From contig JAJPHK010000054.1 of NCBI GenBank assembly GCA_021325315.1, positions 25,737-89,736 of the forward strand: a stretch of DNA of 64,000 nt. Reading direction: 5' to 3'. The notes below the pieces were generated by a model. The model worked only from the letters and a program-made list of their open reading frames with translations. It made no database searches and was not told the DNA's origin. Positions 2,025 to 16,018 of the stretch are shown in pieces. The DNA comes from Alphaproteobacteria bacterium. Its GTDB lineage: Bacteria; Pseudomonadota; Alphaproteobacteria; Rhizobiales; Xanthobacteraceae. Both the position numbers and the translations under genes were made by a program. Every line of letters starts with the position of its first letter. Within the stretch, counting starts at the first letter, position 1.

Positions 2025-2028
2025 CCGC

Positions 2029-2853: not shown

Positions 2854-2869
2854 TGCCGGCCTGTTACAA

Positions 2870-3283: not shown

Positions 3284-3291
3284 GCGACCCT

Positions 3292-4026
3292 CTACGCATT
3301 CAGCCGTGACAATAAATTTCGGTTGCGAAGAACTACACGCCGAGACGCTGGCAATTCGATCGCCTGCTCGTTTTCGAGTTGCGTGAAGGTGCGGGAAACG
3401 GTTTCAATCGTCAGACCGAGATAGTCGGCAATATCCTGCCGAGACATCGGAAGCTCGATCGTAAAGCTGCGGGCTCGCTTGGCCATTTCCAGCAAGAAAG
3501 CCGCAACGCGTTCAAGCGCATTTTTTCGGCCGAGCGTGATCATGAGGTTCTGGACATGATCGAGCTCACGCGCGGTGATGGACCAAAGTTCGCTTGCGAT
3601 TTCACTCTGACGCGCCGCCAGCGTGAGAACTGCGCTGCGTTTAATAACCAGTAGGCGAGATTTAACGACTGCTTCCGCGGAAAAATGATGTTCGCTTGAC
3701 GCTTCGATGCCGATGATGTCGCCTGGAAGATAGAAACCGTTGATTTGACGGCGGCCGTCGTCGAGAATTTTGTAAACGCGGACAGCGCCGCTGACGACTT
3801 TGTAAATAAATTCTGCTGATTCGCCTTCGCCATAGATTTCGTTGTTGCGGTCATATTCGATCTTGGCGCCCATCAACTCGAGTATTTCATCGAGGCTCCT
3901 TCGCTGATCGGTCGTCTTTGAGGCGGCATTTCGCTCTATCGTACGAATGAAAGGAGGGGCAGGAATTTTACCGCTTTCGCTTTGCGTCAACATGGTGCGT
4001 TCTCCTGTTGAGCCGCTTTTAAGCAA
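3292..4026 (-). CDS. fixK: Crp/Fnr-family transcriptional regulator, FixK type (no N-terminal Cys cluster)
   Basis: cNMP-binding-like beta-roll plus a C-terminal HTH (RQDIADYLGLTIETVSRTFTQL). No FNR-type cysteine motif. Divergent from fixLJ. The start could instead be the downstream ATG (MLTQSE). Confidence 0.9.
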   Translation of the reverse strand: MLKSGSTGERTMLTQSESGKIPAPPFIRTIERNAASKTTDQRRSLDEILELMGAKIEYDRNNEIYGEGESAEFIYKVVSGAVRVYKILDDGRRQINGFYLPGDIIGIEASSEHHFSAEAVVKSRLLVIKRSAVLTLAARQSEIASELWSITARELDHVQNLMITLGRKNALERVAAFLLEMAKRARSFTIELPMSRQDIADYLGLTIETVSRTFTQLENEQAIELPASRRVVLRNRNLLSRLNA

Positions 4027-4062
4027 TTGAAAAATCCCCCGAAATTCAGATCTTTCTCTTAA

Positions 4063-4086
4063 GTAGAATCCCGTAGGTTAGATCCC
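4063..4086 (+). promoter_or_regulatory. Candidate FixJ-binding tandem direct repeats in the fixK/fixL divergent intergenic region
   Basis: GTAGAATCCC (4063-4072) and GTTAGATCCC (4077-4086) are near-direct repeats 14 nt apart. The first resembles the S. meliloti FixJ high-affinity motif GTAGTTTCCC as I recall it. Confidence 0.35.
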
Positions 4087-4118
4087 TTAATTCGGCATGA
4101 TAAATTGCGGCACTGCTG

Positions 4119-5609
4119 ATGCATTCATTTCGTCCTGAGAATGAGAAAATCGCTGTGGCACGGTCATACGGTATCGCAATCCTGTGCGTTGCTCTTGCGA
4201 TGCTGGCCCAGACCATTCTGATTTCCCTTGGTGGCAGCGATGTTCGTTTTCTTTTTTTTACGCCGGCCGTGCTTCTTGCAGCTTTGATTGGCGGCGTAGG
4301 ACCGGGGATTTTTGCAACGGGGTTGAGCACTCTCTATCTGATTGCTTGGAAAGAGATCTGGCTCGAATTGCCCAAGGGGGAGGCGCTGCTGCTGCTGGCT
4401 TTCGCTGCGATCGGCATTGGGATCTCGATCGTAGGCGAACGTTTCAGGCGAATGCGGTTGAATGCGGCAGCCGTGACTGAAGATTTGCGTGAACGGGAGG
4501 CGCACCTCAAATCCATTCTCGATACGGTTCCGGATGCGATGGTCGTGATCGATACGGAAGGCATCATTCAATCATTCAGCGCCGCAGCGGAGAGACTATT
4601 CGGCTATCCTGCGGCAGAAGTCGTCGGCCAGAATGTCAAGATATTGATGCCTTCGCCTTACCGGCAAGATCATGACGGTTACATTCGCCGTTATCTCGCA
4701 ACAGGTGAGCGCAGAATCATCGGGATCGGCCGCGTTGTTGTCGGCGAACGAAAAGATGGGTCGACATTTCCAATGGAACTAGCTGTTGGAGAAATGAAAT
4801 CGTCCAATCGGCGCTACTTTACGGGATTCATTCGCGATCTTACCGAACGGCAAAAAACAGAGACGCGTTTGCAAGAGTTGCAGGCGGAACTCGTCCAGAT
4901 CTCGCGGTTGACCGCGATGGGAGAAATGGCCTCGACACTTGCCCATGAGTTAAACCAGCCCCTTTCCGCGATCGCGAATTATTTAAAGGGCTCAAGCCGG
5001 ATGCTGGAGGAGTTGAGCGGCGACGATGCGGCTGCGGTCCGCGGCGCCGTTAACAAAGCCGCTGATCAAGCATTGCGGGCCGGCCAAATCATCCGCCGTT
5101 TACGCGAATTCGTCTCCCAAGGGGAAAGCGAAAAACGTGTTGAAACCATTGCTAAGGTTGCAGAAGAGGCGAGTGCCTTGGCGCTTGTCGGCGCGCGTGA
5201 AACAGGTGTCAGAACAAGGGTCAATTTTGGAAATTTCGTCGATCTGGTGCTGGTTGACCGCATCCAAATTCAACAAGTGCTTGTAAACTTGATACGGAAT
5301 GCGTTGGAAGCGATGCAGAACAGCGATCGACGAGAACTCACTCTTACGACGAAAAAAACGAAGCCGGATACGATCGAAATTTCGGTTGCCGATACGGGAA
5401 CCGGTATCTCGCCAGAGATTGCCGAACATCTTTTCCAACCGTTCTTCACAACCAAGCCGCATGGAATGGGTGTGGGCCTTTCTATTTCGCGGGCGATTGT
5501 CGAAGATCATGGCGGACGAATTTGGATCGAACCGAATCCCGGCGGGGGTACGATTTTCAAGATTACCCTGCCGGCCATCGAAGCCGAGGAAGAAGCCGAT
5601 GCCGGGTAA
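4119..5609 (+). CDS. fixL: Oxygen-sensing haem-PAS histidine kinase FixL
   Basis: N-terminal TM segments. Haem-PAS signature ([52 protein letters not shown]). H-box (LAHELNQPL) and an HATPase_c domain. Confidence 0.93.
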
Positions 5610-6213
5610 GACAGTTCACGTGGTCGACGACGATGCCGCGATGCGCGATTCGTTACGCTTTCTGTTGAAATCGGCAAAGCTCGATGTGCGCACGTATGAG
5701 TCCGCCGATGCGTTCTTGCGCGCGCTTCCTGAAATTAAAGGAGGCTGCGTGCTTACCGACGTGAGGATGCCTGGATTGTCGGGAATCGACTTGTTGCACA
5801 GGTTGAAGAAAACGCCGATCGATCTTCCAGTAATCGTCATGACGGGCCACGGCGATGTCACTCTCGCCGTCGAAGCCATGAAGGAAGGTGCGATCGATTT
5901 TCTGGAAAAGCCCTTTGACGATGAGGTTCTGCTGAAGGCAACGCGTTCCGCGCTCGATCGCTATGAAAAAGATGCAAAAAAGGGCGCAGAGAAAGCCGAA
6001 ATCCTCTCAAGGCTCGCCTTGCTCTCGCAGCGCGAGCGGCAGGTTCTGGAGGGGCTCATCGCCGGTCAGCCGAATAAAGTAATCGCTGCCGATCATCAGA
6101 TCAGCCCGCGAACGGTCGAAATTTATCGGGCGCACGTCATGAGCAAGATGCAGGCGGATAGCCTATCGGAACTCGTCCGCATGGCGCTGGTCGCGGGCCT
6201 TTTTGAAAAATAG
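5599..6213 (+). CDS. fixJ: Response regulator FixJ (receiver domain plus LuxR-type HTH)
   Basis: The ATG at 5599 gives [12 protein letters not shown]... and overlaps the fixL stop by 11 nt. Receiver domain plus [24 protein letters not shown]. The longer listed ORF (5299) is an N-terminal artefact inside fixL. Confidence 0.93.
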
Positions 6214-6221
6214 GATTTTCA

Positions 6222-6235
6222 TTGCGCTAAATCAA
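6222..6235 (+). promoter_or_regulatory. FixK/FNR-type box TTGCGCTAAATCAA
   Basis: Matches TTG(A/C)-N6-(T/G)CAA. The centre at 6228.5 is 40.5 nt upstream of the nitroreductase ATG at 6269. Confidence 0.6.
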
Positions 6236-6268
6236 AACGTGAAATGATGGCTGGCGCAATAAATAGCG

Positions 6269-7312
6269 ATGCTGGCGAACATAAGCGCATCAGAAAATTA
6301 CGATCAGTCTGCAGATCCTTGGCAAGTAGACGCTGCCGCATTCCCCCGAAACGGAACGGCGATTGAGAAGCTGCGCTTCTTTCTCCGCTATGCTGTTCTC
6401 GCGCCGTCAAACCACAATAGCCAGCCTTGGGCAGTGCGCATTGCCCGGGATCATATCGATCTGCTCGCGGATCGTTCGCGTTCACTACCGATCTCGGATC
6501 CTTTCGATCGGGAGCTGATTATTTCATGCGGGGCGTTCCTTGCTTTTTTCGAGATTGCCGCACGCGCGTTTGGCTGTTTGCTGAGTATCGAACGGTTTCC
6601 CGACCGGGCAAACCAAGATGTCCTGGCCCGGATTTGGCTCAAACGCTACGATCCGGGGTCACCAAATTTGCCTCTGCTCGATGACATCCTGGCGCGCAGA
6701 ACCAATCGTCATGCCTTTGATTCCGCGCCCGTAACAAACGAGGAACAAGAACTTCTTTCCTTCGCAGCGGGTTCCGATCGTGCGCGCATTACCTGGATTA
6801 CTGACGGCACCGAAAAGGCATCTTTGGCGCAGATCATTATGGATGCGGACAAGGCTCAATTCGACAACCCATCCTTCTTGCGGGAGTTGGCCTCTTGGCT
6901 ACGCTTGCCAAAGACATCGGCGATGGATGGAATTCCGTCGACATCCATCGGCATTAGCGGCCTTACGGCCATATATATTGGCCCGCTGCTTGTACGAACC
7001 TTCGATGTCGGCCAAGGGAAAGCGGCTCGCGATCAGGAATTGATCAATAATTCGGCCGCTTTCGCTATTTTTTCGACGCCGTTCGACACTGAGCGCGATT
7101 GGCTCTTTTGTGGCGAGGCGCTGGGTTCATTTCTCTTGTGCGCCCAGCGGATCGGACTGCGTGTCTCCTATTTGAACCAACCTTGCGAGGTCGACAATAC
7201 TCGTTTCCGGCTGGCGATGCTGGGCTCGATGAAAAGCAATCCGCAGCTTGTTCTCCGGCTGGGACGAACCGAGTTCTCACCGCCTCCTACGCCGCGCCGG
7301 CGGCTAGTATGA
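6269..7312 (+). CDS. Acg-family (tandem nitroreductase-fold) FMN-binding protein
   Basis: About 347 aa with a nitroreductase motif (APSNHNSQPW). Size and architecture are typical of Acg/Rv2032-like proteins. Confidence 0.75.
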   Translation: MLANISASENYDQSADPWQVDAAAFPRNGTAIEKLRFFLRYAVLAPSNHNSQPWAVRIARDHIDLLADRSRSLPISDPFDRELIISCGAFLAFFEIAARAFGCLLSIERFPDRANQDVLARIWLKRYDPGSPNLPLLDDILARRTNRHAFDSAPVTNEEQELLSFAAGSDRARITWITDGTEKASLAQIIMDADKAQFDNPSFLRELASWLRLPKTSAMDGIPSTSIGISGLTAIYIGPLLVRTFDVGQGKAARDQELINNSAAFAIFSTPFDTERDWLFCGEALGSFLLCAQRIGLRVSYLNQPCEVDNTRFRLAMLGSMKSNPQLVLRLGRTEFSPPPTPRRRLV

Positions 7313-7331
7313 AACAGCGCCCATTCAAACG

Positions 7332-7508
7332 CTAAAATTTAATGCTGCTGCGCGTGGGGCTATGTTCGACGCGAATGATCTTTTTTTGGAGATAATTTTC
7401 GATAGCATCGACCCAGGGGGACGGCACGACGTAGACCCAAACAAGATAGCAAATCGCCCAAAGCAATATGATCGTAACTGTAGGATGTTTTCGAATGGCA
7501 TCAATCAT
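7332..7508 (-). CDS. Hypothetical small single-TM membrane protein (58 aa from the ATG at 7508)
   Basis: ORF with a hydrophobic segment (VTIILLWAICYLVWVYVV). The listed TTG start at 7526 lies upstream of the transcription start predicted from the FixK box. Confidence 0.3.
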   Translation of the reverse strand: MIDAIRKHPTVTIILLWAICYLVWVYVVPSPWVDAIENYLQKKIIRVEHSPTRSSIKF

Positions 7509-7543
7509 CGTGCATGCTCGTAGCAAAGGCGCGATACATCGGC

Positions 7544-7557
7544 TTGATCCAGATCAA
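7544..7557. promoter_or_regulatory. Consensus FixK/FNR box TTGATCCAGATCAA between divergent small genes
   Basis: Both half-sites are perfect (TTGAT / ATCAA) with 4-nt spacing, sitting in an AT-rich intergenic region. Confidence 0.75.
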
Positions 7558-7615
7558 CGAGATTCAGGTAATCCCGATTAATATATTTATAAATTGGCCA
7601 AACGGGTGTTTTCAA

Positions 7616-7720
7616 ATGACTGCTTTCGGGCAAGGAAATTTCGCTCCTTTCTTCACCGCCGTCGTTATTTCTGTTGTGGTGATCGCTTTATTTTTTGTGT
7701 TTTTCTCGCCGGCTTTATGA
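7616..7720 (+). CDS. Hypothetical 34-aa hydrophobic peptide translationally coupled to the cytochrome c gene
   Basis: MTAFGQGNFAPFFTAVVISVVVIALFFVFFSPAL. Its TGA stop overlaps the ATG of the next gene (ATGA at 7717-7720). Confidence 0.4.
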   Translation: MTAFGQGNFAPFFTAVVISVVVIALFFVFFSPAL

Positions 7721-8040
7721 TGATCTGCTGGCGATTTATGCTCGTATTGGGCATGTTCCTCGCGCTCTCATCAAACGGTATGCGAGCCAAAGCTGGCGAT
7801 GCTGTTCGCGGCCAGGAACTCGCTGCGATGTGGTGCAGTTCTTGTCACCTTCCCCGAGAAAGCAAGCCGCACAATATGATGGTGGCTCCGCCTTTCGAAG
7901 AAGTGGCGCAACGGAGCAATATAAACGCCAAAACGCTGGCTCAATTATTGATGTCACCTCACCCGGCAATGCCGGATCGCGGGCTTAGCCGCGAGGAGGC
8001 GGACGATATCGGAGCTTATCTCCTGTCGCTGCAGAAATAA
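7717..8040 (+). CDS. Small periplasmic class I c-type cytochrome
   Basis: Signal peptide (MMICWRFMLVLGMFLALSSNG), a CSSCH haem-binding motif, and a distal Met candidate (HPAMP). The start was set at ATG 7717 instead of TTG 7594. Confidence 0.8.
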   Translation: MMICWRFMLVLGMFLALSSNGMRAKAGDAVRGQELAAMWCSSCHLPRESKPHNMMVAPPFEEVAQRSNINAKTLAQLLMSPHPAMPDRGLSREEADDIGAYLLSLQK

Positions 8041-8071
8041 TCCGCAGCTCTACCGTCTCTCTGCAAGAAGC

Positions 8072-8085
8072 TTGAGCCAGATCAA
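8072..8085 (+). promoter_or_regulatory. FixK/FNR-type box TTGAGCCAGATCAA
   Basis: 13 of 14 positions are identical to the box at 7544. The centre at 8078.5 predicts a TSS near 8120, 20 nt upstream of ATG 8140. Confidence 0.65.
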
Positions 8086-8139
8086 GGGCGCTTACGGGGC
8101 GAACGGCTATTTTTGGAAAAATCTTTTAGGATTTTGCCA

Positions 8140-8883
8140 ATGTTTGTCGTCAACGTGATGATGCCCTATGCGATCACGATCAACCGCAGGGCGCCAATAC
8201 GCGACGCGATCCGGCTGATGCTGAAACACCAAATCAGCGGACTTCCCGTAGTTGATGACGAGGGCGCGCTGGTTGGCATCTTGAGCGAAAGTGATTTTTT
8301 GCACCGCGTGGAAATCGGCACCGAACGCCGCCGCAGCTGTTGGCTTGGCTTTTTGTTTAACGCCGAAAGACTTGCTTCAGAATATATTCATGACCATGGC
8401 CGAACGGTCGAAGACGTCATGACGAAAGCACCGGTGGTCACCGTCACGGAATTGACCGATCTTGAGAGCGCGGCCAAGTTGATGGAAGAGCACAAGATTA
8501 AGCGGCTCCCGGTCATGAGGGGAGATCGTATCATAGGCATATTGACGCGAGCGAGTTTGATCAAAGCCATTATGATGCAAGGAAAAAGCATGCCGATGCC
8601 GAAGAAAAGCGATCAGGAATTACGAGGCAGGATTTTCGAAGAGGTGCAACAAGCGCAATGGCTCGTCGCCCCGCTCCTCGATATTCAAGTGAAGAACGGG
8701 AACGCGCGGATAAGCGGAGTCGTTTACGATGAACGGCAGGAAGAAGCGATCAAGGTTCTTGTTGAAAACGTGCCGGGCGTGAAATCGGTGGCAAGCGAAT
8801 TGGCTTGGATCGAGCCTTTATCCGGGGCTGTAATTCTTTCCCCGGGGGAGGAGAAAACGCCGAAAATCATCACCCTGCATTAA
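8140..8883 (+). CDS. CBS-pair plus BON domain protein (copy 1)
   Basis: Two CBS motifs (ISGLPVVDDEGALVGILSESD; IKRLPVMRGDRIIGILTRASL) and a C-terminal BON-like segment (ISGVVYDERQEEAIKVLVENVPGVKSV). Confidence 0.85.
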   Translation: MFVVNVMMPYAITINRRAPIRDAIRLMLKHQISGLPVVDDEGALVGILSESDFLHRVEIGTERRRSCWLGFLFNAERLASEYIHDHGRTVEDVMTKAPVVTVTELTDLESAAKLMEEHKIKRLPVMRGDRIIGILTRASLIKAIMMQGKSMPMPKKSDQELRGRIFEEVQQAQWLVAPLLDIQVKNGNARISGVVYDERQEEAIKVLVENVPGVKSVASELAWIEPLSGAVILSPGEEKTPKIITLH

Positions 8884-8918
8884 GGTCGCCGCACGCCGTC
8901 ATTTAGAGAGGAGCTTTC

Positions 8919-9608
8919 ATGCTCGTTCTACACGCCATGATACCTATGGTGATCACTGTCTCACAGGATCAGACAATCGGCGACGCCATTAAAAAAATGA
9001 TCGAGTATCGGATCAGCGGCCTTCCGGTTGTCGACGCCGACGGCGCGCTTGTTGGTATGCTGAGCGAGAGTGATTTCTTGCGTCGGGCAGAATTGGGAAC
9101 CGGGCGCAAGCATCTGGGATGGCTCGCATATTTCATGCCCGGAAAGCTTGCCGGCGAATACGTTCACGAACACGGGAGAAGGGTGAGAGAGGTTATGACC
9201 CCCGATCCAATGACCGTCGACGAATACGCCCCGCTCGAAGATGCAGCGAAGATAATGGAAACAAATTACATCAAGCGGCTGCCTGTAACGAGGAAGGGGC
9301 GGCTAATTGGAATGCTAACCCGTTCGGACATGATGCGTGTTGTCGCCGAACGCGGACATGCGCTGCCGCCGCTCAAAGACAGCGATCAAGCGATTCGGCA
9401 ACACATACTCGAACAGGTTTCGCGACAGCCATGGCTACCGGGGTCGCCTGTCGATGTTACGGTCGACAACGGGAGGGTGACTCTGCTTGGAACCGTGTCC
9501 GACATACAACAAGCCAAAGCCTTGGAAGTGCTGGCCGGCAACGTGAAAGGCGTGTCGTCCGTGACGAACGGCATCCGTATTCTGCAACTGAAATTCGCAG
9601 AAGATTAA
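8919..9608 (+). CDS. CBS-pair plus BON domain protein (copy 2)
   Basis: Same architecture as copy 1 and clear paralogy to it. SD-like GAGAGGAG lies upstream. Confidence 0.85.
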   Translation: MLVLHAMIPMVITVSQDQTIGDAIKKMIEYRISGLPVVDADGALVGMLSESDFLRRAELGTGRKHLGWLAYFMPGKLAGEYVHEHGRRVREVMTPDPMTVDEYAPLEDAAKIMETNYIKRLPVTRKGRLIGMLTRSDMMRVVAERGHALPPLKDSDQAIRQHILEQVSRQPWLPGSPVDVTVDNGRVTLLGTVSDIQQAKALEVLAGNVKGVSSVTNGIRILQLKFAED

Positions 9609-11198
9609 ATGCCAAAACCGTTCGGATTTGGGCGAGACAGGAACCGGACGGATAAAAAAGACGTAGATACGCAGGATCGCGTCTTCGCCTATCTTGCCGA
9701 TCCGAGAACGCATGGCGGTCTCGAAGTAAAGCGAATCGATACGCACGCCTCCACCGTTTTCCTGGCCGGTAATCGCGCATACAAAGTGAAGCGAAGCGTG
9801 CGGTTTCCATATCTCGACTATTCGACGCCGGAGAAGCGGAAGGCCGCTTGCCTTCAGGAAGTAACTGTAAATCGTCGTTTCTCTCCCGATCTCTATCTGA
9901 GGGTCGCCGAGATTAAGGATTTCAACGGACGGCTAAGCCTTGAGGGAGAGGGCACACCAATCGAATGGGCCGTTGTTATGAAGCGATTCGATGAATCCCT
10001 TACGCTGGATCGGCTCGCGGAATACGGATCAATTACAAATGACCTCGCCGATGAACTTGGGCGAATGGTGGCGCGAATGCATGCGGATGCGCCGGTTATC
10101 CGCAGCGAGATGTGGCAAGGTTCGCTTTCAACTGTCATTGAGGAAAACGAAAGGGACCTGAAGACACATCCGGATCTATTTGATGCCGGGAAAGTTCGGG
10201 TTCTAACGCTGCAATCGAAAGAAAAACTCGAATCTAACAAGGCGCTGTTATCCGCACGCGCAGCAGCTGGTTTTGTGCGCGAAGGACATGGAGATCTCCA
10301 TCTCAGGAATATCGCCTTGATTGACGGAAATCCGACGCCTTTCGATGCGATCGAATTCGACCCATTGCTTGCTTCGGGCGATGTATTTTACGAACTTTCG
10401 TTTTTGCTGATGGATCTCTGGGAGAGGGGTGCGCGCGATTCCGCGAACATTGTGCTCAACCGATACCTGATTGAGGCCGATAGAGAAGAGCACCTGCCGG
10501 GGCTTGCGTTATTGCCGTTATTTTTGTCAATGCGCGCGGCGATACGTGCGAAAATTTGCGCGACCGAGTTAGCGCGTTCTGCCCGGGCCAACGAAAATCT
10601 CGCAAAGAGTGCGACGCGTTATTTCAATTTGGCTGTCGAGTTTTTGCGGCCTGATGCGCCGCGACTAGTAGTGGTAGGCGGCCTGTCGGGATCGGGAAAA
10701 TCTGCGCTTGCGAGATTGCTGGCATCTCATCTTTCCCCGGCGCCCGGAGCGGTCATTCTCCGCTCCGATATTGAACGAAAACAGCTCTTTCATGCGAGCG
10801 AAACGGAGCTGTTGCCAAGCCAAGCTTACAGATCCGATGTTTCTGGAAAAGTGTATGAGCGCCTCTTTCAGAAAACGGAGTCCGCGTTACAGGCCAAACA
10901 CTCTGTAATTCTTGATGCGACATTTCTGCATGAAGCGACGCGGGATGCAGCCCTAAAATTATCAAAAAGATGCGGCGTCCCGCTTGCGGGCCTGTATCTC
11001 GATGCGGATTTAAGCGTCCGTCTTGAACGTATCGCAAAAAGGAAAAGGGATGCATCGGATGCTGACGCAAAAGTAGCAATGCAGCAGAGAAGCCCTTCAA
11101 ACCTAAGCGCTGAGTGGACGCGTATCGACGCGAACGCCGATCTCAGCACCACCATGCTGCATGCTTTGCAGGCGATCGGCGTCACAGATCGGCAGTAA
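9609..11198 (+). CDS. Bifunctional protein: N-terminal APH/kinase-like phosphotransferase domain plus C-terminal P-loop (AAA_33-like) kinase domain
   Basis: Catalytic-loop-like HGDLHLRNI and FDAIEFD in the N-terminal part. Walker A (GGLSGSGKSA) in the C-terminal part. The ATG directly follows the TAA of the preceding CBS-BON gene. Confidence 0.8.
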   Translation: MPKPFGFGRDRNRTDKKDVDTQDRVFAYLADPRTHGGLEVKRIDTHASTVFLAGNRAYKVKRSVRFPYLDYSTPEKRKAACLQEVTVNRRFSPDLYLRVAEIKDFNGRLSLEGEGTPIEWAVVMKRFDESLTLDRLAEYGSITNDLADELGRMVARMHADAPVIRSEMWQGSLSTVIEENERDLKTHPDLFDAGKVRVLTLQSKEKLESNKALLSARAAAGFVREGHGDLHLRNIALIDGNPTPFDAIEFDPLLASGDVFYELSFLLMDLWERGARDSANIVLNRYLIEADREEHLPGLALLPLFLSMRAAIRAKICATELARSARANENLAKSATRYFNLAVEFLRPDAPRLVVVGGLSGSGKSALARLLASHLSPAPGAVILRSDIERKQLFHASETELLPSQAYRSDVSGKVYERLFQKTESALQAKHSVILDATFLHEATRDAALKLSKRCGVPLAGLYLDADLSVRLERIAKRKRDASDADAKVAMQQRSPSNLSAEWTRIDANADLSTTMLHALQAIGVTDRQ

Positions 11199-11867
11199 GG
11201 AGCTGCTTTGTCATCCGATCAACAACTTGCTTCACGCCCCACATGCTTTCTGCCGCAACTCGGATGGCACTTCGCTCAGAGTCGCTGCGAACCAAACCGG
11301 TCAGCTCGACGACGCCTTCTGTCACATTGATATTCACGAGGTCGAGATGCGCCCAAGGCTGATTTGCCAGATGAGTGAGCAGTTTCTCGCGGATATATCG
11401 ATCATCAGCTTCAATGCCGATAGCGCCGTGTAACTCTGCAAAAGCACGGATCAGATCGGCGCGGCTCGCGACGCCTACAACGCGGTCGTTTTCGACGACA
11501 GGCAAGCGCTTGATTGCATGCTTTTCCATGAGATCGACAAGGTATCGAATTGAATCGTTGGGATGAACGGACACAACCTTGGTCGTCATGATATCGCGGA
11601 TTTTTTTGGCGTGAGCTTTCACATATTCGCCGGCGAGAATTGCTTCCCCCACCAGCATTCGCAGCCACCAGGAACGCTGCTTTTCTGTCGAGATTTCGTA
11701 CCGTCGGATGAGATCGCGTTCCGTTACAATACCGCCAGCTTGCCGCTTTCTTCGACGACCGGAACGCCACTGATACGCTTTTCGGCCATCAGCTTGGCTA
11801 GCTCGATCACCGAAATGTTCGGCTTCACGGTAACCGCCGGCGCTATCATAATCTTGCGCACATTCAT
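11182..11867 (-). pseudogene. CBS-pair plus BON domain gene (copy 3) interrupted by a 1-nt frameshift near 11732
   Basis: ATG 11867 gives MNVRKIMIAPAVTVKPNISVIELAKLMAEKRISGVPVVEESGKLA, then a stop at 11726-11724. The -1 frame continues IVTERDLIRRYEISTEKQRSWWLRMLVGE... into ORF 11182..11658. One extra G in CTGGCGGTATT would restore a single roughly 228-aa ORF. Confidence 0.7.
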
Positions 11868-11941
11868 GATTGCCTTCGCGTAACTTATGAAAGTTTAGGC
11901 GGCTGCTCCGCGGGAATATTAATCTCGGTCAAACGAAGAAT

Positions 11942-11955
11942 GTGCGCTGAATCAA
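11942..11955 (-). promoter_or_regulatory. Degenerate FixK-like box GTGCGCTGAATCAA
   Basis: 12 of 14 positions are identical to the box at 6222, but the first T is replaced by G. It lies about 80 nt upstream of the CBS-BON copy 3 start. A second weak candidate, TTAATCTCGGTCAA, is at 11919-11932. Confidence 0.3.
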
Positions 11956-12029
11956 AATCTGCCTTTGGAGGCGCTAGTTTAGCTGCGGCATTCAATGACA
12001 GAAGAGCACCGAAGTTTCGGGTGCGCTTT

Positions 12030-12140
12030 TTAGTCGATGAGAACCGGTGGGAGCCAAATAAGCATAAGAGCGATTAAAACGCCCAAGAGAGTCAGGAACA
12101 CAATCGTTGCCGCCCAAGATTCCGCCTCAGCTCGATTCAT
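12030..12140 (-). CDS. Hypothetical 36-aa hydrophobic peptide
   Basis: My translation gives MNRAEAESWAATIVFLTLLGVLIALMLIWLPPVLID. It starts 10 nt downstream of the usp stop on the same strand. Too short for the supplied ORF track. Confidence 0.3.
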   Translation of the reverse strand: MNRAEAESWAATIVFLTLLGVLIALMLIWLPPVLID

Positions 12141-12150
12141 GGCGATCTCC

Positions 12151-12972
12151 TTAATGCGATAACAAACAGGCACAGGGTGGCTGATTGAGAAGGACTTCAG
12201 TCACGCCTCCGAATATCCATTCACCGATTTGGCTGCGGCCATACGCGCCGGCGACGATAACATCGGCGTCGTATTGTTTCGCTTGCAAGAGGAGCTCTTC
12301 CGCTACGGAATAATTTCCTGAATGTGCGACTTTAGGCTCTACAGTAATCTCATGACCGAGCAGATAAGAGCCGACATCGGATAGGATCTCGTGTACTTCT
12401 TGCTGAGTTTGTGCTTCTTCGCAGATTCCAAGAAGCAAAATATCTTTCGTTATTTTTAAAAAAGGCAATGCATTGGCAAGTGCGCACCGTGACTCACGCC
12501 CATCCTTCCAGGCGATAATCGCCCGACGAAAGGGAACGGTTTTGACGTGGTCGGGCACGTACAAAATCGGCCGCCCCGCCTGCATGATGATCGTGGCGGG
12601 ATTGAAGCGATGTTCGAGTGGCGCCTCGGAATCGGAACCGATGACGAGAAGATCGACGGATCTGAGCTTGTTTATGAAGGCTTTGAGAGGATAATCGTTG
12701 CTTCCGCGCCATTCGAGGTGCGGAGTCTTGCAAGTGGCAAGCTCTCGAAATCGCTTTTCCCGCTGTGTTAGTTCCGCGGTCGCATGTTCAAACTCAAGCT
12801 TTAAGAGTCGATTGCTGACCGGGCCATTGGGAAAAGCCTTGCTGGAAATAGATTGGCAGCCCAAGCCGACTAATTTTGCGTTCATTTTTTGAGTGAGTTC
12901 GCAAGCAATGTTGACGCGCCGATCAGATGCGGCGCCTGAACTCACATAGACACTAATCGAGGGATGGATCAT
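12151..12972 (-). CDS. Tandem-domain universal stress protein (UspA family)
   Basis: Two USP domains, C-terminal GAYGRSQIGEWIFGGVT. The start was set at ATG 12972 (MIHPSISVYV) because the longer ORF start would lie inside the FixK box. Confidence 0.85.
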   Translation of the reverse strand: MIHPSISVYVSSGAASDRRVNIACELTQKMNAKLVGLGCQSISSKAFPNGPVSNRLLKLEFEHATAELTQREKRFRELATCKTPHLEWRGSNDYPLKAFINKLRSVDLLVIGSDSEAPLEHRFNPATIIMQAGRPILYVPDHVKTVPFRRAIIAWKDGRESRCALANALPFLKITKDILLLGICEEAQTQQEVHEILSDVGSYLLGHEITVEPKVAHSGNYSVAEELLLQAKQYDADVIVAGAYGRSQIGEWIFGGVTEVLLNQPPCACLLSH

Positions 12973-13005
12973 GTTTATTTCTAAGCATCTTTCGACAGTG
13001 CGCTT

Positions 13006-13019
13006 TTGACGCAAATCAA
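13006..13019. promoter_or_regulatory. FixK/FNR-type box TTGACGCAAATCAA between divergent genes
   Basis: Matches TTGA-N6-TCAA. The centre at 13012.5 is 40.5 nt from the usp ATG (12972, minus strand). It is 41.5 nt from position 13054, just upstream of the AGGAGGAG SD of the plus-strand gene. Confidence 0.65.
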
Positions 13020-13066
13020 AGGATCCAACCTTATGAAGCCGCAGGAAAACACAGCAGGAGGAGAAT

Positions 13067-13462
13067 ATGCAGCAACATTTTCACATGGCGGTGTGGATCG
13101 ATCACCACGAGGCGCGCGTATTCAGCTTCAACGCCGATCAATCGGATAAGTTAGTCGTTCATCCCGAACACCCTGTCCGCAATATCCATCACAAAGCGAA
13201 TTCGATCGGCAGCGGGCATGCAGCCGAAGATCAGGATTTCTACGACAAGGTGGCTCAACACATTCGGCAAGCCGGCGCAATTCTTGTGGCTGGACCTGCG
13301 AACGCGCGTATCGAATTTATCAAGCATCTAAGATCGAATGACCCGGCTCTCGCACAAAAAATAAATACCGTCGAACGTACCGGTCGCTTCACCGACGCTG
13401 AATTTCTTGCGCATGCGCGAGAATACTTTTCTCGGCATGATCGCATGACACCCCTTCTATAA
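13067..13462 (+). CDS. Small conserved protein, host-attachment/eRF1-domain-like (databases often label homologues 'translational machinery protein')
   Basis: 131 aa. His-rich N-terminus (MAVWIDHHEARVF) and an AILVAGPANARIEFIKHL segment typical of that family as I recall it. Strong SD. Confidence 0.6.
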   Translation: MQQHFHMAVWIDHHEARVFSFNADQSDKLVVHPEHPVRNIHHKANSIGSGHAAEDQDFYDKVAQHIRQAGAILVAGPANARIEFIKHLRSNDPALAQKINTVERTGRFTDAEFLAHAREYFSRHDRMTPLL

Positions 13463-13477
13463 ACAGGGTTACACGAA

Positions 13478-14455
13478 ATGGTCCCGTATTTTGGCTCCCG
13501 AAGACGTTTCTCCGATCTTTCAGAATCCGAGATACTAGCGCTTGCCATCTCCTCCGAAGAGGACGACGCGCGCATCTATTCGTCTTACGCAGAGCAACTG
13601 CGGGAGAAGTTTCCCGCGTCTGCCCGGATTTTCGACCAGATGGCGGAGGAGGAAAATGATCATCGCCGTTTGCTGATTGACATCTATGAACGGCGCTTCG
13701 GAAAAACCATTCCGTTAATTCGGCGAGAGCATGTCGCTGGCTATTACTGGCGTCGGCCGATTTGGCTTGTTCAGAATCTGGGGCTGGAGCGTATTCGGCA
13801 GGAAGCCAGCCGCATGGAGGACGATGCTGCCGCTTTCTATACACGCGCCGCTCAATCCAGCTCGGATCCGGCAACTCGAAAGCTGCTTGGCGACCTTGCT
13901 GCGGCCGAAAGAATGCATGAGAGCAGGGCGGACAAGCTGCAGGTGGACGTGGCGGGAGGTGAACCGGGAAAGGAAGAGGAGCGTAAGGCTTTTCGGCAAT
14001 TCATTCTTACTTGGGTGCAACCCGGACTTGCTGGGTTAATGGATGGTTCTGTTTCAACACTCGCGCCGATTTTTGCAACGGCGTTCTCCACGCACTCGAG
14101 CTCAACGACATTTACAGTCGCACTTGCGGCCGCCGTGGGCGCAGGAATTTCAATGGGCTTCACCGAAGCAGCGCACGATGATGGTGTGATTTCTGGCCGT
14201 GGCTCGCCACTTAAGCGCGGCATCGCCTCAGGATTGATGACCGCATTAGGTGGTCTTGGTCATGCTCTCCCATATCTCATCCAGAATTTCTGGACAGCAA
14301 CTACGTTGGCAGTGGCGATCGTCTTCGTAGAATTGTGGGCGATTGCGTTTATTCAAAATCGTTACATGGAAACGCCATTTTGGCGGGCTGTGTTCCAGAT
14401 CGTGTTAGGAGGTTCGCTGGTTCTCGGAACGGGGATCTTAATCGGAGGAACGTAG
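13478..14455 (+). CDS. mbfA: Membrane-bound ferritin-like/VIT1 (CCC1) family iron exporter
   Basis: The N-terminal ferritin-like domain has ExxH motifs (EEENDHRRL, AAERMHESR). The C-terminal VIT1-type TM domain has about 5 hydrophobic segments. The length (325 aa) matches MbfA. Confidence 0.8.
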   Translation: MVPYFGSRRRFSDLSESEILALAISSEEDDARIYSSYAEQLREKFPASARIFDQMAEEENDHRRLLIDIYERRFGKTIPLIRREHVAGYYWRRPIWLVQNLGLERIRQEASRMEDDAAAFYTRAAQSSSDPATRKLLGDLAAAERMHESRADKLQVDVAGGEPGKEEERKAFRQFILTWVQPGLAGLMDGSVSTLAPIFATAFSTHSSSTTFTVALAAAVGAGISMGFTEAAHDDGVISGRGSPLKRGIASGLMTALGGLGHALPYLIQNFWTATTLAVAIVFVELWAIAFIQNRYMETPFWRAVFQIVLGGSLVLGTGILIGGT

Positions 14456-14680
14456 AATCGTAACAACGATAATTCGTGAGTTTAAGACGATCTCTATTCG
14501 GAATTCCCAGATCGCCGATGTTCACTCAGGGAATTTAGAGAGAATGCATTGATTTTATTGCCAATTCATTAGGTCCTGCGTGGAGATGCGAGAAAATCTA
14601 ATTTTTCCCTGTTCTTTTCGCTGTTATAGGGGAACGGCCTAGCCAGAGGCTGAATCGCTGCAGACTACATCCTGCACCAC

Positions 14681-16018
14681 TCAGCCTTCAGCCGATTCTC
14701 TGGCTACGGACTCCGCAAGAAATGCGCCGGTGATGCGTGAAGTGTCACTCATAGGCGCCACCGTATAAGCTTCCGGGAGGATGATCGAAGGATCTGCAGG
14801 ATCTGGCGCCTCGTGCGTGACGACCCCGCCCACAGGAGCGGTTGCGGCAAGATCGAACTCGGTCTTTTGCCGCGAGGCGAGCGGACGTTGTACCCGTGTG
14901 CGATAAAACACGTAGACTGCCAGCAGCGCCTGCGTCAGCGCGGTGAACAGGAACAGTCCGCGCGGTCCTTCCGTCGACATGAAGCCAGCGGCGACAAGCG
15001 GGCCGATCACTGAGCCGAGACCATTGGCGAGCAGGATCGTGGCAGCGACCGAGACAGCATCGCTTGCCGGCGTCTTATCGTAGGCATGGGCGGCCGCGAG
15101 CGAATAGCCTGGCAGCGCGAGCGCGCCGAACAAAATACCGAGCAACAGCAGTATTGGGCCGGACGCGGAGGTCAGAAAAATGACGATGCCTACAACGGCG
15201 GCGCCGATCAGGAGCGCGAGTAGCACCAAGCGGCGGTCGACGCGATCGGACAGATGGCCGACCGGCCACTGCGCAATCGCTCCGGCCAGCACTGCGAGGC
15301 TCATGAAGAGCGCTGCACGATCGACGCTGAGGCCGCTCCGGGCGGCCGAGAGCGGCGCGAGTCCCCAAAATGCGCCGTTGGCGCAACCGATCACAAAACT
15401 CGCAATCAGCGCGACCGGAGCCTCGCGGTAGATCTGCCCCGGGTGAAAACGGACAATTGTGATCGGCGCCGGTTGCGCCGAGCGGGTCAATGCCACCGGA
15501 ACAGTCGCCAACGAGGAAAGCATGGCGGCGACCATAAAGCTCCCGGCCTCAACGACCGGATAAAGCGTCGCCAGCGCCTGGCCGAGCGTGATAGCGCCGT
15601 AACTGACCACTACGTAGGACGAAAGCACGAGTCCGCGCGTTTCGTTGGAAGCGCCGTCATTGAGCCAGCTTTCAACAACCAGATAGAGGCCGGCGAGGCA
15701 AAGACCCGTTACGACACGGAACGCTATCCAGGCGGGAACCGTCGGCGCGAGCGCGTAGGCAAGCGCCATGGCGGCCGTGACCGCCACCATCGCCGTAAAT
15801 GCCCGGATGTGTCCCGCACGCAGGATCACGTAGGGTCCAAGCAGACAGCCGCTGACGAAGCCGACGAAATAGCCCGAGCCGATGACGCCAAGCGCAAGAT
15901 CGCCGAAACCTTCAGCGCTGCCACGCAGCGGAAGCAACGTGAATTGCATGCCGCTGCCTGCCAGCAGGAACGCTACTCCCAGGAGCAGCGAAACGATCGG
16001 GCGCAGATTCTTTCGCAT
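14681..16018 (-). CDS. MFS transporter
   Basis: About 12 predicted TM segments. The start was set at ATG 16018 (MRKNLRPIVSLLLG). Confidence 0.85.
   Translation of the reverse strand: MRKNLRPIVSLLLGVAFLLAGSGMQFTLLPLRGSAEGFGDLALGVIGSGYFVGFVSGCLLGPYVILRAGHIRAFTAMVAVTAAMALAYALAPTVPAWIAFRVVTGLCLAGLYLVVESWLNDGASNETRGLVLSSYVVVSYGAITLGQALATLYPVVEAGSFMVAAMLSSLATVPVALTRSAQPAPITIVRFHPGQIYREAPVALIASFVIGCANGAFWGLAPLSAARSGLSVDRAALFMSLAVLAGAIAQWPVGHLSDRVDRRLVLLALLIGAAVVGIVIFLTSASGPILLLLGILFGALALPGYSLAAAHAYDKTPASDAVSVAATILLANGLGSVIGPLVAAGFMSTEGPRGLFLFTALTQALLAVYVFYRTRVQRPLASRQKTEFDLAATAPVGGVVTHEAPDPADPSIILPEAYTVAPMSDTSRITGAFLAESVARESAEG

What the first reader, a model, noticed from the sequence alone, without database searches (positions are those of the whole stretch)
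8140..11198. Uncharacterised three-gene operon: two CBS-pair+BON proteins and an APH-like/P-loop double kinase
The three genes are tightly packed: a 35-nt gap with an SD, then the TAA is immediately followed by the next ATG. A FixK box precedes them.

CBS pairs typically sense adenosyl ligands, and BON domains are proposed membrane/osmotic-shock binding modules. The third protein fuses a eukaryotic-like/APH kinase fold (HGDLHLRNI, FDAIEFD) to a separate P-loop kinase domain (GGLSGSGKS).

The combination looks like an energy-charge-sensing, phosphotransfer-based module switched on by hypoxia. To my knowledge no substrate or function is established for this architecture.
Basis: partly seen in the sequence, partly recalled or inferred. 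Interest (0 to 1): 0.6.

Follow-up and report, generated by a model that had tools for sequence, protein, structure and literature searches.

The report
Hypoxia-induced CBS proteins plus double kinase
Three tightly packed genes behind a low-oxygen (FixK) promoter box encode two CBS-pair+BON proteins and a two-headed kinase of the mycobacterial Rv2004c type; the gene set is real and its biochemistry is unknown, but its members are already listed in rhizobial low-oxygen regulons and their fusion into one operon is a local rearrangement.

Summary
Genes 8140-8883 and 8919-9608 each encode a CBS pair plus a BON domain. Gene 9609-11198 encodes an APH/choline-kinase-like domain fused to a gluconokinase-like P-loop domain, and both catalytic sites are intact. 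The gaps are 35 nt and 0 nt. A TTGA-N6-TCAA box lies at 8072-8085.

Hypoxia control is well supported. Thirty-one of the 91 boxes in 80 homologous loci lie within 400 bp upstream of the kinase. About 13 of 21 CBS-BON genes elsewhere have their own box. Published Bradyrhizobium work places a "putative kinase" (blr6071) and a CBS protein (blr6074) in the FixK2 regulon.

The three genes are not an obligate module. Kinase and CBS-BON lie within 8 kb in about 11 of 55 same-family genomes that have both, usually with separate boxes. In an order-wide sample they are rarely near each other. Two fully syntenic relatives keep all three CBS-BON genes and have no kinase in that slot.

The kinase belongs to the large COG2187 family, which PGAP names [quoted passage not shown]. 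Full-length homologues in Mycobacteriales sit beside Acg-type nitroreductases.

An AcuB-like adenylate-sensing role for the CBS-BON proteins is plausible but untested. Verdict: a new member of a known kind, of moderate interest.

The parts
8072..8085 (.). FixK/FNR-type box TTGAGCCAGATCAA. Its centre lies 61.5 nt upstream of the ATG at 8140.
   Evidence: 3 exact TTGA-N6-TCAA sites in 64 kb against 1.0 expected. The same box is kept in the 92%-identical relative L081/L082.
8108..8113 (+). Putative -10 element TATTTT, placed as expected for a class II promoter with the box centred at -41.5 (predicted transcription start near 8120).
   Evidence: Read from the sequence. This is inference only; the promoter scan did not call it.
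8140..8883 (+). CBS-BON1, 247 aa. A cytoplasmic CBS pair plus BON, the 'long' form with the C-terminal W-x-EP-x-SG tail.
   Evidence: Its orthologue follows the cytochrome c gene in L081, L155, L156 and L148.
8919..9608 (+). CBS-BON2, 229 aa. A short-form paralogue, 45% identical to CBS-BON1.
   Evidence: The AlphaFold model has pLDDT 83.6. The best structural matches are AcuB and CBSX1/2. Its orthologue lies directly upstream of the kinase in L081, L083, L084 and G307.
9609..11198 (+). COG2187-type double kinase, 529 aa. The N-terminal APH/choline-kinase-like domain spans about residues 20-345 (K59/K61, E84, H227-G-D229-x4-N234, D246). The C-terminal gluconokinase/AAA_33-like P-loop domain spans about residues 350-525 (G357-x-x-x-x-G363-K364-S, D387, R390, D436).
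   Evidence: (pLDDT 89.5, pTM 0.90).
11182..11867 (-). CBS-BON3, convergent with the kinase; the two 3' ends overlap by 17 bp. It is broken here by a 1-bp deletion near 11733 relative to the intact 228-aa gene of L081.
   Evidence: A degenerate box TTAATCTCGGTCAA lies at 11919. The intact orthologue has an exact box in L081.
3292..4026 (-). Crp/Fnr-family regulator (FixK-like), the presumed reader of the boxes.
   Evidence: cNMP_binding, HTH_Crp_2 and Crp domains.
4119..6213 (+). fixL (4119-5609; PAS, HisKA, HATPase) and fixJ (about 5602-6213; receiver plus GerE), the oxygen-sensing two-component pair upstream in the cascade.

Best explanation
The three genes are a lineage-specific polycistronic unit inside an accessory, lower-GC fixK-fixLJ low-oxygen island.

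Proposed sequence of events: under microoxia FixL phosphorylates FixJ and FixK is made. FixK binds the box at 8072-8085, which is spaced for a class II promoter, and drives one mRNA for CBS-BON1, CBS-BON2 and the kinase.

The kinase is a COG2187 'bifunctional aminoglycoside phosphotransferase/ATP-binding protein', the family to which M. tuberculosis Rv2004c belongs. It is a rigid fusion of an APH/choline-kinase/MTR-kinase-like small-molecule kinase and a gluconokinase-like P-loop kinase. Both active sites are conserved from Alphaproteobacteria to Actinobacteria. It most likely phosphorylates one or two hydroxyl groups of a still unknown small metabolite.

The CBS-BON proteins are cytoplasmic Bateman-domain proteins. 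They most likely bind adenine nucleotides and act as adaptors or regulators through the C-terminal BON domain.

Kinase and CBS-BON are each independent, widespread members of FixK regulons. They sit in the same island in part of this bacterial family. Their fusion behind a single box is a local rearrangement, not proof of an obligate sensor-kinase complex.

Shown here: domains, folds, catalytic residues, box conservation, and the synteny patterns. Inferred: co-transcription, nucleotide binding, and the small-molecule nature of the substrate.
For: Domains and folds:
- The kinase AlphaFold model has pLDDT 89.5 and pTM 0.90.
- In Foldseek the N-terminal part matches choline/ethanolamine kinase 3dxq, MTR kinase 2pul, APH(3')-Ia, capreomycin phosphotransferase, maltokinase 4u94 and NahK.
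- The C-terminal part matches sugar kinase 4eun and gluconokinase 3t61.

Catalytic residues:
- They are invariant in 44 alphaproteobacterial homologues.
- They are kept in 8 actinobacterial homologues at 30-34% identity; the only change is N234 to D.

Regulation:
- 31 of the 91 TTGA-N6-TCAA boxes in 960 kb of 80 kinase loci lie within 400 bp upstream of the kinase, in 29 loci, against 2-3 expected.
- About 13 of 21 CBS-BON genes in other genomes have a box within 450 bp upstream.
- In five other genera the island reads GNAT-ACS<, CBS-pair<, [box], kinase>, <PhaC, <USP, USP>, [box], CBS-BON>, fixL>, fixJ>. This matches the order bll6068-blr6074 in B. diazoefficiens.
- In B. diazoefficiens, blr6071 ('putative kinase') and blr6074 (CBS) are FixK2-dependent, and blr6074, bll6068, bll6069 and bll6073 are microoxia-induced (PMC2908626, PMC6515984).

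Local origin of the operon:
- The same-genus genome G307 has [box] CBS-BON2>kinase><CBS-BON3. Its cyt c-CBS-BON1 pair lies about 7 kb away.
- L155 and L156 are fully syntenic but have no kinase.
- The island has 53% GC against 58-64% for the rest of the window.
- Same-genus genome G254 has no match for the kinase, CBS-BON or a FixL orthologue.

Cross-phylum parallel:
- Mycobacteriales homologues lie next to Acg-type nitroreductases in 5 of 8 loci and next to CBS genes in 2 of 8.
- Rv2004c is COG2187 and belongs to the DosR regulon (PMC1950094).
Against: - Co-transcription therefore rests only on the spacing and on the lack of an internal box or strong terminator.
- No substrate is known and no neighbouring enzyme gives a pathway hint.
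- The M. tuberculosis genome could not be reached in the collection. Homology to Rv2004c itself rests on the shared COG assignment and on full-length Mycobacteriales homologues.
- The orthology of blr6071 is inferred from gene order, not from its sequence.
- Kinase and CBS genes co-localise in several unrelated lineages. These are the window clade, a Bradyrhizobium-like group, two Acetobacterales-like loci with a CBS pair directly downstream, and two actinobacterial loci. This is more than co-regulation alone strictly requires, so a functional link is not excluded.
Confidence: 0.72

Rival explanations
1. Integrated sensor-kinase module. One or both CBS-BON proteins sense AMP/ADP/ATP (or Ap4A), bind the double kinase and gate it. 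This would resemble AcuB gating AcuC, or loosely AMPK gamma gating the alpha subunit. The operon would then be a functional unit.
For: - The best structural matches of CBS-BON2 are AcuB, a CBS pair plus a small C-terminal alpha/beta domain. AcuB is an adenylate/Ap4A sensor that inhibits the enzyme encoded in its own operon (PMC13121692, PMC13039410).
- The ribose-binding G-h-h-S/T-x-x-D motifs are conserved (G46..D52 is invariant).
- The arrangement CBS-BON>kinase><CBS-BON is kept in the window, L081, G307, L083 and L084 at only 50-58% kinase identity.
- CBS genes flank the kinase in several other lineages, including two actinobacterial loci.
- The two genes lie within 8 kb in about 11 of 55 family genomes, against fewer than 1 expected.
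Against: - 75 of the 80 best kinase loci have no CBS gene within 6 kb, even by HMM search.
- In the order-wide sample only 2 of about 27 genomes with both genes have them near each other.
- Eight CBS-BON-positive genomes in that sample have no kinase match.
- L155 and L156 keep all three CBS-BON genes with no kinase in the slot.
- In most islands the two genes have separate boxes.
- The linkage label is not clustered on the kinase tree (4 changes; 39 of 500 shuffles as low).
- No interaction test was possible.
Confidence: 0.15
2. The kinase is an aminoglycoside (streptomycin-type) resistance enzyme, as its database name and the Rv2004c report suggest.
For: - The APH Pfam match is above the cut-off.
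- Foldseek hits include APH(3')-Ia, APH(2'') and capreomycin phosphotransferase.
- Rv2004c is reported to have mild streptomycin phosphotransferase activity (PMC8701281).
Against: - The APH match is marginal (25.5 bits). Choline, MTR, malto- and hexosamine kinases match equally well at 10-18% identity.
- The gene is a single-copy, vertically widespread member of oxygen-controlled islands: 72 of 100 family genomes, with a FixK box. It is not in a resistance or mobile context.
- The extra P-loop kinase domain is conserved, which a simple APH would not need.
Confidence: 0.05
3. The kinase is a growth-arrest effector. Either a zeta-toxin-like P-loop kinase phosphorylates a nucleotide-sugar or cofactor, or the APH-like domain acts as a protein kinase. 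In both cases it would impose dormancy under hypoxia.
For: - The Zeta_toxin Pfam match scores 38 bits against a cut-off of 22.3.
- The gene belongs to dormancy-type regulons in two phyla (PMC1950094).
Against: - The AAA_33 match is much stronger (98 bits), and gluconokinase and sugar kinase are the best structural matches.
- There is no antitoxin-like partner.
- There is no meaningful PADLOC hit.
- Nothing here shows toxicity.
Confidence: 0.05
4. The three genes are not one operon and are transcribed from separate promoters despite the tight spacing.
For: - In relatives CBS-BON2 can carry its own box: L156 at 4943, and G307 at 8967 and 9063.
- In L083 the kinase is 263 bp from the CBS-BON gene.
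Against: - In the window the gaps are 35 and 0 nt, with no box and no convincing promoter or terminator between the genes.
- L081 and L082 keep exactly the same junctions.
Confidence: 0.08

Closest known systems
M. tuberculosis Rv2004c (DosR/DevR dormancy regulon; COG2187). In PGAP annotation this family is named 'bifunctional aminoglycoside phosphotransferase/ATP-binding protein'.
   Same: - The size is similar, about 500-530 aa.
- The published description fits: 'low similarity to gluconate kinase, highly similar to COG2187' (PMC1950094).
- JGI and PGAP names of the window's homologues correspond.
- Both genes belong to a low-oxygen regulon.
- Full-length Mycobacteriales homologues (30-34% identity, both catalytic sites kept) lie beside Acg-type nitroreductases and CBS genes.
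   Different: - The regulator differs: FixLJ-FixK with a TTGA-N6-TCAA box, against DosRST.
- The catalytic-loop Asn is Asp in the actinobacterial proteins.
- The only reported activity, weak streptomycin phosphorylation, is unlikely to be the physiological one.
Bradyrhizobium diazoefficiens FixK2-regulon cluster bll6068-blr6074 (blr6071 'putative kinase', blr6074 CBS-domain protein)
   Same: - The gene repertoire matches: GNAT-ACS, USP, kinase and CBS protein.
- The control is FixK-type.
- The gene order kinase> <phaC ... CBS-BON> was found in five genera of the same family.
- Published data show FixK2 dependence and microoxic induction (PMC2908626, PMC6515984).
   Different: - There the kinase and the CBS protein are separate transcription units a few kb apart. 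Here two CBS-BON genes and the kinase share one box.
- The orthology of blr6071 is inferred from synteny, not checked on its sequence.
AcuB of Bacillus and Geobacillus (CBS pair + ACT; adenylate/Ap4A sensor that inhibits AcuC)
   Same: - It is the best structural match of CBS-BON2 over about 190 columns.
- It is a stand-alone Bateman domain followed by a small alpha/beta domain.
- It is encoded in an operon with an enzyme.
- Its nucleotide-binding motifs are conserved.
   Different: - The C-terminal domain here is BON by Pfam, not ACT.
- Sequence identity is only about 22%.
- No deacetylase partner is present.
- Nucleotide binding and partner binding are untested here.
- The island does encode a Pat-like ACS-GNAT acetyltransferase (window 3-2024). 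Whether that is relevant is unknown.
Hypoxic response protein 1 (Rv2626c) and plant CBSX1/2: stand-alone CBS-pair proteins
   Same: - The CBS pair is homologous (PDB 1xkf/1y5h at E 5e-7; CBSX1 at E 6e-18).
- Rv2626c is hypoxia-induced.
   Different: Those proteins lack the BON domain.
OsmY, DolP/YraP: classical BON-domain proteins
   Same: The BON fold matches: PF04972, and YraP 7a2d at E 2e-4.
   Different: Those proteins are periplasmic and carry signal peptides or lipoboxes. The proteins here have the CBS domain starting at residue 3-5 and are therefore cytoplasmic.

Membership tests
COG2187 / 'bifunctional aminoglycoside phosphotransferase/ATP-binding protein' (Rv2004c type) | N-terminal APH/eukaryotic-like-kinase fold with an H-x-D-x4-N catalytic loop and a metal-binding Asp | tested here: met
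   PF01636 scores 25.5 bits, above the 23.2 cut-off. HGDLHLRN and FDAIEF have invariant H227, D229, N234 and D246. Foldseek matches ChoK, MTRK and APH.
COG2187 / 'bifunctional aminoglycoside phosphotransferase/ATP-binding protein' (Rv2004c type) | C-terminal P-loop (AAA_33/gluconokinase-like) domain fused in the same chain, about 500-530 aa in total | tested here: met
   PF13671 scores 98 bits at residues 353-494. Structural matches are 4eun and 3t61. More than 7,900 full-length homologues carry the JGI name 'aminoglycoside phosphotransferase family enzyme/predicted kinase'. The PGAP name appears on plasmid homologues.
COG2187 / 'bifunctional aminoglycoside phosphotransferase/ATP-binding protein' (Rv2004c type) | Detectable homology to Rv2004c itself | not testable with these tools
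   No M. tuberculosis record was reachable. As surrogates, about 10 full-length homologues were found in 81 Mycobacteriales genomes at 30-34% identity, and the literature assigns Rv2004c to COG2187 (PMC1950094).
True aminoglycoside phosphotransferases (resistance enzymes) | Aminoglycoside substrate specificity and a resistance phenotype | not testable with these tools
   There is only fold-level likeness at 13-16% identity, no better than to choline, MTR, maltose or hexosamine kinases.
FixK/FNR regulon member | TTGA-N6-TCAA box at promoter distance, next to a cognate Crp/Fnr regulator and fixLJ | tested here: met
   The box is at 8072-8085. fixK is at 3292-4026 and fixLJ at 4119-6213.
FixK/FNR regulon member | The box is conserved upstream of orthologues in other genomes | tested here: met
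   Kinase: 29 of 80 loci have a box within 400 bp upstream. CBS-BON: about 13 of 21.
FixK/FNR regulon member | Low-oxygen, FixK-dependent expression | not testable with these tools
Published data exist for blr6071 and blr6074 of B. diazoefficiens (PMC2908626, PMC6515984), whose orthology is inferred from synteny.
CBS-pair + BON proteins | Two CBS repeats followed by one BON domain in a protein of about 230-250 aa without a signal peptide | tested here: met
   Shown. Six hundred homologues matched; all 120 listed (223-271 aa) carry the same two Pfam domains. The AlphaFold model shows a Bateman domain plus an alpha-beta-beta-alpha-beta domain.
AcuB-type energy-charge adaptors | C-terminal ACT domain that contacts the partner enzyme | tested here: not met
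   Pfam calls the domain BON, not ACT. The resemblance is at fold level only.
AcuB-type energy-charge adaptors | Adenine-nucleotide or Ap4A binding in the Bateman cleft, and nucleotide-dependent binding of an operon-encoded enzyme | not testable with these tools
   Only the G-h-h-S/T-x-x-D motifs can be seen.
AMPK-like heterotrimer | A gamma subunit with four CBS repeats regulating a eukaryotic-type Ser/Thr protein kinase subunit | tested here: not met
   There are two CBS repeats per protein. The kinase is of the small-molecule APH/ChoK type plus a P-loop kinase.
Zeta toxin / toxin-antitoxin or phage-defence kinase | Zeta-type P-loop kinase with a cognate antitoxin or a defence-system context | tested here: not met
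   The Zeta_toxin match (38 bits) is secondary to AAA_33 (98 bits). There is no antitoxin-like neighbour. PADLOC gives only two weak hits, at E 5e-5 and 3e-4.

The most novel reading that the evidence does not exclude
The short-form CBS-BON paralogue that sits directly upstream of the kinase in this clade, and possibly the convergent one downstream, is an AcuB-like adenylate/Ap4A sensor. It would dock on the COG2187 double kinase and switch it on when energy charge falls in hypoxia. That would be a bacterial analogue of AMPK logic built from unrelated parts. It would also give the first physiological handle on the family of Rv2004c-type dormancy kinases.
Probability: 0.12. Interest if true: 0.7.

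Novelty: new member of a known kind. Interest (0 to 1): 0.4.

Why it matters
COG2187 double kinases are present in about 70% of genomes sampled in this bacterial family and in just over half of those sampled in the order. They also occur on many rhizobial, Azospirillum and Cupriavidus plasmids. In Mycobacteriales they sit beside dormancy-type genes. Despite this distribution, no physiological substrate is known.

The same four gene types (double kinase, CBS protein, Acg-type nitroreductase and USP) are wired to FixK in Alphaproteobacteria. In mycobacteria the same gene types belong to the DosR regulon (literature; only a few DosR-like boxes were seen here). This points to a conserved low-oxygen survival toolkit.

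This locus adds a natural experiment. The kinase is fused into a CBS-BON operon in one lineage, separate in others, and missing in syntenic relatives. That pattern can guide tests in cultivable relatives such as Bradyrhizobium or Rhizobium. The locus does not reveal a new kind of system.

Tried and rejected
- **Direct comparison with Rv2004c.** A search of genome contigs with a standard IS6110 PCR primer found no M. tuberculosis record. I did not pursue this further and used other Mycobacteriales genomes instead.
- **CBS-BON as a single-protein query to the search for related loci.** This returned only two irrelevant loci. I replaced it with the genome search.
- **Pathway hint from conserved neighbours of the kinase in 80 loci.** Only hypoxia-island genes recur: USP, Pat-like ACS-GNAT, a TPP enzyme and Hsp20. 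Many of the clusters were spurious antisense ORFs in high-GC DNA.
- **DosR-box scan in 8 actinobacterial loci.** A few GGGxC-N4-GxCCC sites were found, and GGGCCGAAGGTCCC recurs. The result was not systematic enough to claim.
- **Supplement of PMC2908626.** It held nothing on the 'putative kinase' orthologue set.
- **Phage-defence or toxin reading.** Rejected.
- **My own intermediate reading.** After the 80-locus and order-level surveys I concluded there was no conserved linkage at all. The family-level survey corrected this to 'linked in some lineages, as an island'.
- **Tree of the kinases.** My extraction of the L081, L083 and L084 kinases for the tree was out of frame, so those rows were dropped. 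I placed them by BLAST instead.

Full report
**1. Observation**

- Gene 1 is 8140-8883 and encodes 247 aa. A TTG at 8113 is a possible alternative start. The close relative L081 is also called at 247 aa, and the predicted transcription start favours 8140.
- After 35 nt, which contain AGAGAGGAG 5 nt before the ATG, comes gene 2 (8919-9608, 229 aa).
- The TAA of gene 2 abuts the ATG of gene 3 (9609-11198, 529 aa).

Pfam finds two CBS repeats and one BON domain in each small protein. In the large protein it finds an APH match (residues 75-292, marginal at 25.5 bits) followed by a strong AAA_33 match (residues 353-494, 98 bits). NCBIfam has no specific model for any of the three.

The box TTGAGCCAGATCAA is at 8072-8085. 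Only three exact TTGA-N6-TCAA sites exist in the 64 kb, against 1.0 expected. All three lie within 5.5 kb of each other, beside fixK (3292-4026), fixL and fixJ. With the box centred at -41.5, the predicted transcription start is near 8120, and TATTTT at 8108-8113 would serve as the -10 element. That promoter geometry is inference.

**2. The kinase**

An AlphaFold2 model built on 44 homologues is confident as a single rigid body (pLDDT 89.5, pTM 0.90).

Foldseek against the PDB gives two sets of matches.
- For the N-terminal two thirds: choline/ethanolamine kinases, 5-methylthioribose kinase, APH(3')-Ia, APH(2''), capreomycin phosphotransferase, maltokinase, N-acetylhexosamine kinase and glucosamine kinase. 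All are at 10-18% identity and none stands out.
- For the C-terminal third: a sugar kinase (4eun) and gluconokinase (3t61) at about 20% identity.

No solved structure is detectable by sequence alone.

The catalytic residues of both sites are invariant in the 44 alphaproteobacterial homologues.
- APH-like site: K59/K61, E84, H227-G-D229, N234 and D246.
- P-loop site: G357..G363-K364-S, D387, R390 and D436.

They are also kept in eight actinobacterial homologues, where N234 is replaced by Asp. The name 'double kinase' is therefore justified at the fold and active-site level. The substrate is unknown.

**3. How common the kinase is, and what it is called**

The family is very large. At least 7,977 clusters at 90% identity matched, and JGI names them 'aminoglycoside phosphotransferase family enzyme/predicted kinase'. 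PGAP names the plasmid-borne homologues 'bifunctional aminoglycoside phosphotransferase/ATP-binding protein' or 'AAA family ATPase'. These occur in Azospirillum, Rhizobium, Sinorhizobium, Leisingera, Cupriavidus, Ralstonia and Variovorax.

The kinase is found, mostly as a single copy, in 85 of 151 genomes sampled from the order and in 72 of 100 from the family.

The literature describes M. tuberculosis Rv2004c, a DosR/DevR-regulon gene, as weakly gluconate-kinase-like and 'highly similar to COG2187' (PMC1950094). It also reports mild streptomycin phosphotransferase activity for it (PMC8701281, citing Doddam 2019). I could not reach the M. tuberculosis genome.

About 10 of 81 other Mycobacteriales genomes carry full-length homologues at 30-34% identity. 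In 5 of 8 such loci an Acg-type nitroreductase lies within 8 kb. In 2 of 8 a CBS gene does, and one of those is CBS+BON.

**4. Hypoxic control is conserved, gene by gene**

In 80 loci holding the closest kinase homologues from species-representative genomes, 31 of the 91 TTGA-N6-TCAA boxes lie within 400 bp upstream of the kinase. They fall in 29 loci, against 2-3 expected. Fourteen of those 29 loci are related Stappiaceae.

In 20 loci fetched around CBS-BON homologues, about 13 of 21 CBS-BON genes have a box within 450 bp upstream. Nine of those are at 50-130 bp.

[quoted passage not shown] It states that blr6070, blr6071 and blr6074 were shown to depend on FixK2 (PMC2908626).

A proteome and transcriptome study shows microoxic induction of the CBS proteins blr6074, blr4646 and blr2762. 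It shows the same for bll6068 (GNAT), bll6069 (USP) and bll6073 (phaC2) (PMC6515984).

In five genera of the window's family I find this order: GNAT-ACS<, CBS-pair<, [box], kinase>, <PhaC, <USP, USP>, [box], CBS-BON>, fixL>, fixJ>. It reproduces the bll6068-blr6074 order, so blr6071 is very probably the COG2187 orthologue. This is inferred from gene order, not checked on sequence.

**5. Whether the three genes form a conserved module**

The answer depends on the phylogenetic scale.

Evidence for linkage:
- The 92%-identical relative L081/L082 has the identical arrangement.
- L083 and L084 have [box] CBS-BON>kinase><CBS-BON.
- The same-genus genome G307 has the same core. There the cyt c-CBS-BON1 pair lies about 7 kb away and CBS-BON2 carries its own boxes.
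- In the family sample the two genes lie within 8 kb in 11 of about 55 genomes that have both, spread over at least 7 genera, against fewer than 1 expected by chance.

Evidence against linkage:
- Of the 80 best kinase loci, only 4-5 have any CBS gene within 6 kb, even with an HMM.
- In the order sample only 2 of about 27 genomes with both genes have them near each other.
- Linkage is not clustered on the kinase tree.
- L155 and L156 are syntenic gene for gene with the window: fixK, fixL, fixJ, Acg, cyt c, CBS-BON1, CBS-BON2, CBS-BON3, USP and rubrerythrin-VIT, at 51-84% identity. Between CBS-BON2 and CBS-BON3 they have about 400 bp of non-coding DNA and no kinase or kinase remnant.

My reading is that kinase and CBS-BON are independent members of one regulon and tend to share an island. 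The window's three-gene operon arose by juxtaposing a cyt c-CBS-BON1 unit and a CBS-BON2-kinase unit.

**6. The CBS-BON proteins**

Their architecture is common: 600 homologues matched, and all 120 listed have the same two domains. The CBS domain begins at residue 3-5, so the proteins are cytoplasmic. This differs from the classical periplasmic BON proteins.

The AlphaFold model (pLDDT 83.6) shows a Bateman domain, a poorly ordered insert at residues 57-75 and an alpha-beta-beta-alpha-beta C-terminal domain. The G-h-h-S/T-x-x-D ribose-binding motifs are conserved.

The best structural matches over about 190 columns are AcuB proteins (CBS pair + ACT), followed by CBSX1/2 and other stand-alone CBS pairs. 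Rv2626c also matches by sequence.

AcuB has recently been shown to bind AMP, ADP, ATP and Ap4A and to inhibit AcuC, the enzyme encoded in its own operon, through its C-terminal domain (PMC13121692, PMC13039410). It is a resemblance and not membership, because the C-terminal domain here is BON and not ACT.

**7. The island**

The first 16 kb of the window has 53-55% GC, against 58-64% for the rest. It encodes a Pat-like ACS-GNAT, a USP, fixK, fixLJ, an Acg-like nitroreductase and a cytochrome c. These are followed by the three genes, a frameshifted third CBS-BON, a tandem USP, a 131-aa protein and a rubrerythrin-VIT1 protein.

A same-genus genome (G254, 98% complete) has no match for the kinase, CBS-BON or a FixL orthologue. 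The island is therefore accessory within the genus.

**8. Verdict**

The finding is real and correctly described. Its regulatory interpretation is supported. It belongs to an already catalogued, functionally uncharacterised set of FixK-regulon genes, with a known counterpart in the mycobacterial dormancy regulon.

The claim of a dedicated sensor-kinase module is possible, at about 0.12-0.15, but the distribution data do not favour it.

The earlier first-reader notes on this window were each confirmed here. They cover the DosR-like repertoire, the four boxes, the frameshifted third paralogue and the GC shift.

Noticed in passing
window 11182-11867 (-): The third CBS-BON paralogue is convergent with the kinase and overlaps its 3' end by 17 bp. 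It carries a 1-bp deletion (GGCGGG to GGCGG, near 11733) relative to the intact 228-aa gene in L081. Its upstream box is degenerate (TTAATCTCGGTCAA at 11919, against an exact box in L081). This is either a pseudogene or a MAG assembly error.
   Followed up: yes
L155 5691-6069; L156 5691-6107: Two metagenomic relatives are syntenic with window 3292-14455 gene for gene, but the kinase is missing. Only about 400 bp of non-coding DNA lies between CBS-BON2 and CBS-BON3, with no kinase remnant by tblastn.
   Followed up: yes
L148 (G307:C7) 9870-11376: In the same-genus genome the kinase orthologue is split into two frames near residue 193. This is a frameshift or a sequencing error. The flanking CBS-BON genes are intact.
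   Followed up: partly
window 1-16000: The fixK-fixLJ stress block has 53-55% GC, against 58-64% for the rest of the window. A same-genus genome (G254) lacks a FixL orthologue, the kinase and CBS-BON. The block therefore looks like an accessory, possibly acquired island.
   Followed up: partly
window 3-2024 (+): This is a Pat-like protein (ADP-forming acyl-CoA synthetase domains plus GNAT), cut by the window edge. The same gene recurs near the kinase in 19 of 80 loci and in L149, and corresponds to the microoxia-induced bll6068 of B. diazoefficiens. It may be relevant to the AcuB analogy (acetylation control), but this is untested.
   Followed up: partly
L137 (G216:C1) 8293-9246 (-); also G089, G209, G211, G205, G285: Stand-alone versions of the APH-like N-terminal domain exist (about 340-370 aa, no P-loop domain). 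In G216 one has its own FixK box and lies 1.7 kb from a CBS-BON gene. Stand-alone C-terminal P-loop versions also occur (G088, G149, G207).
   Followed up: no
L149 5518-5943 (-), and the equivalent genes in L150-L153: A small CBS-pair-only protein (141 aa, Hrp1-like) is transcribed divergently from the kinase. It shares the kinase's FixK box in five genera of the family.
   Followed up: partly
window 13067-14455 (+): A 131-aa protein with no Pfam match is followed by a rubrerythrin-VIT1 protein. The gene pair is also present in L084, and the rubrerythrin-VIT1 protein is 84% identical in L155/L156. A FixK box lies upstream at 13006-13019.
   Followed up: no
L119, L121, L124 (Mycobacteriales loci): The palindrome GGGCCGAAGGTCCC and close variants recur around the actinobacterial kinase homologues. 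L119 has 4-5 copies in 17 kb, one of them 186 bp upstream of the kinase. These are compatible with DosR-type boxes but were not tested statistically.
   Followed up: partly
L154 (R. johnstonii 3841 pRL9) 8003-8844: On pRL9 the kinase homologue is divergent from fragments of an inositol-monophosphatase-family gene. It sits among adhP, USP, host-attachment protein, GroEL, a BON fragment and the HlyD/RbbA transporter, which is again a hypoxia-island context.
   Followed up: no
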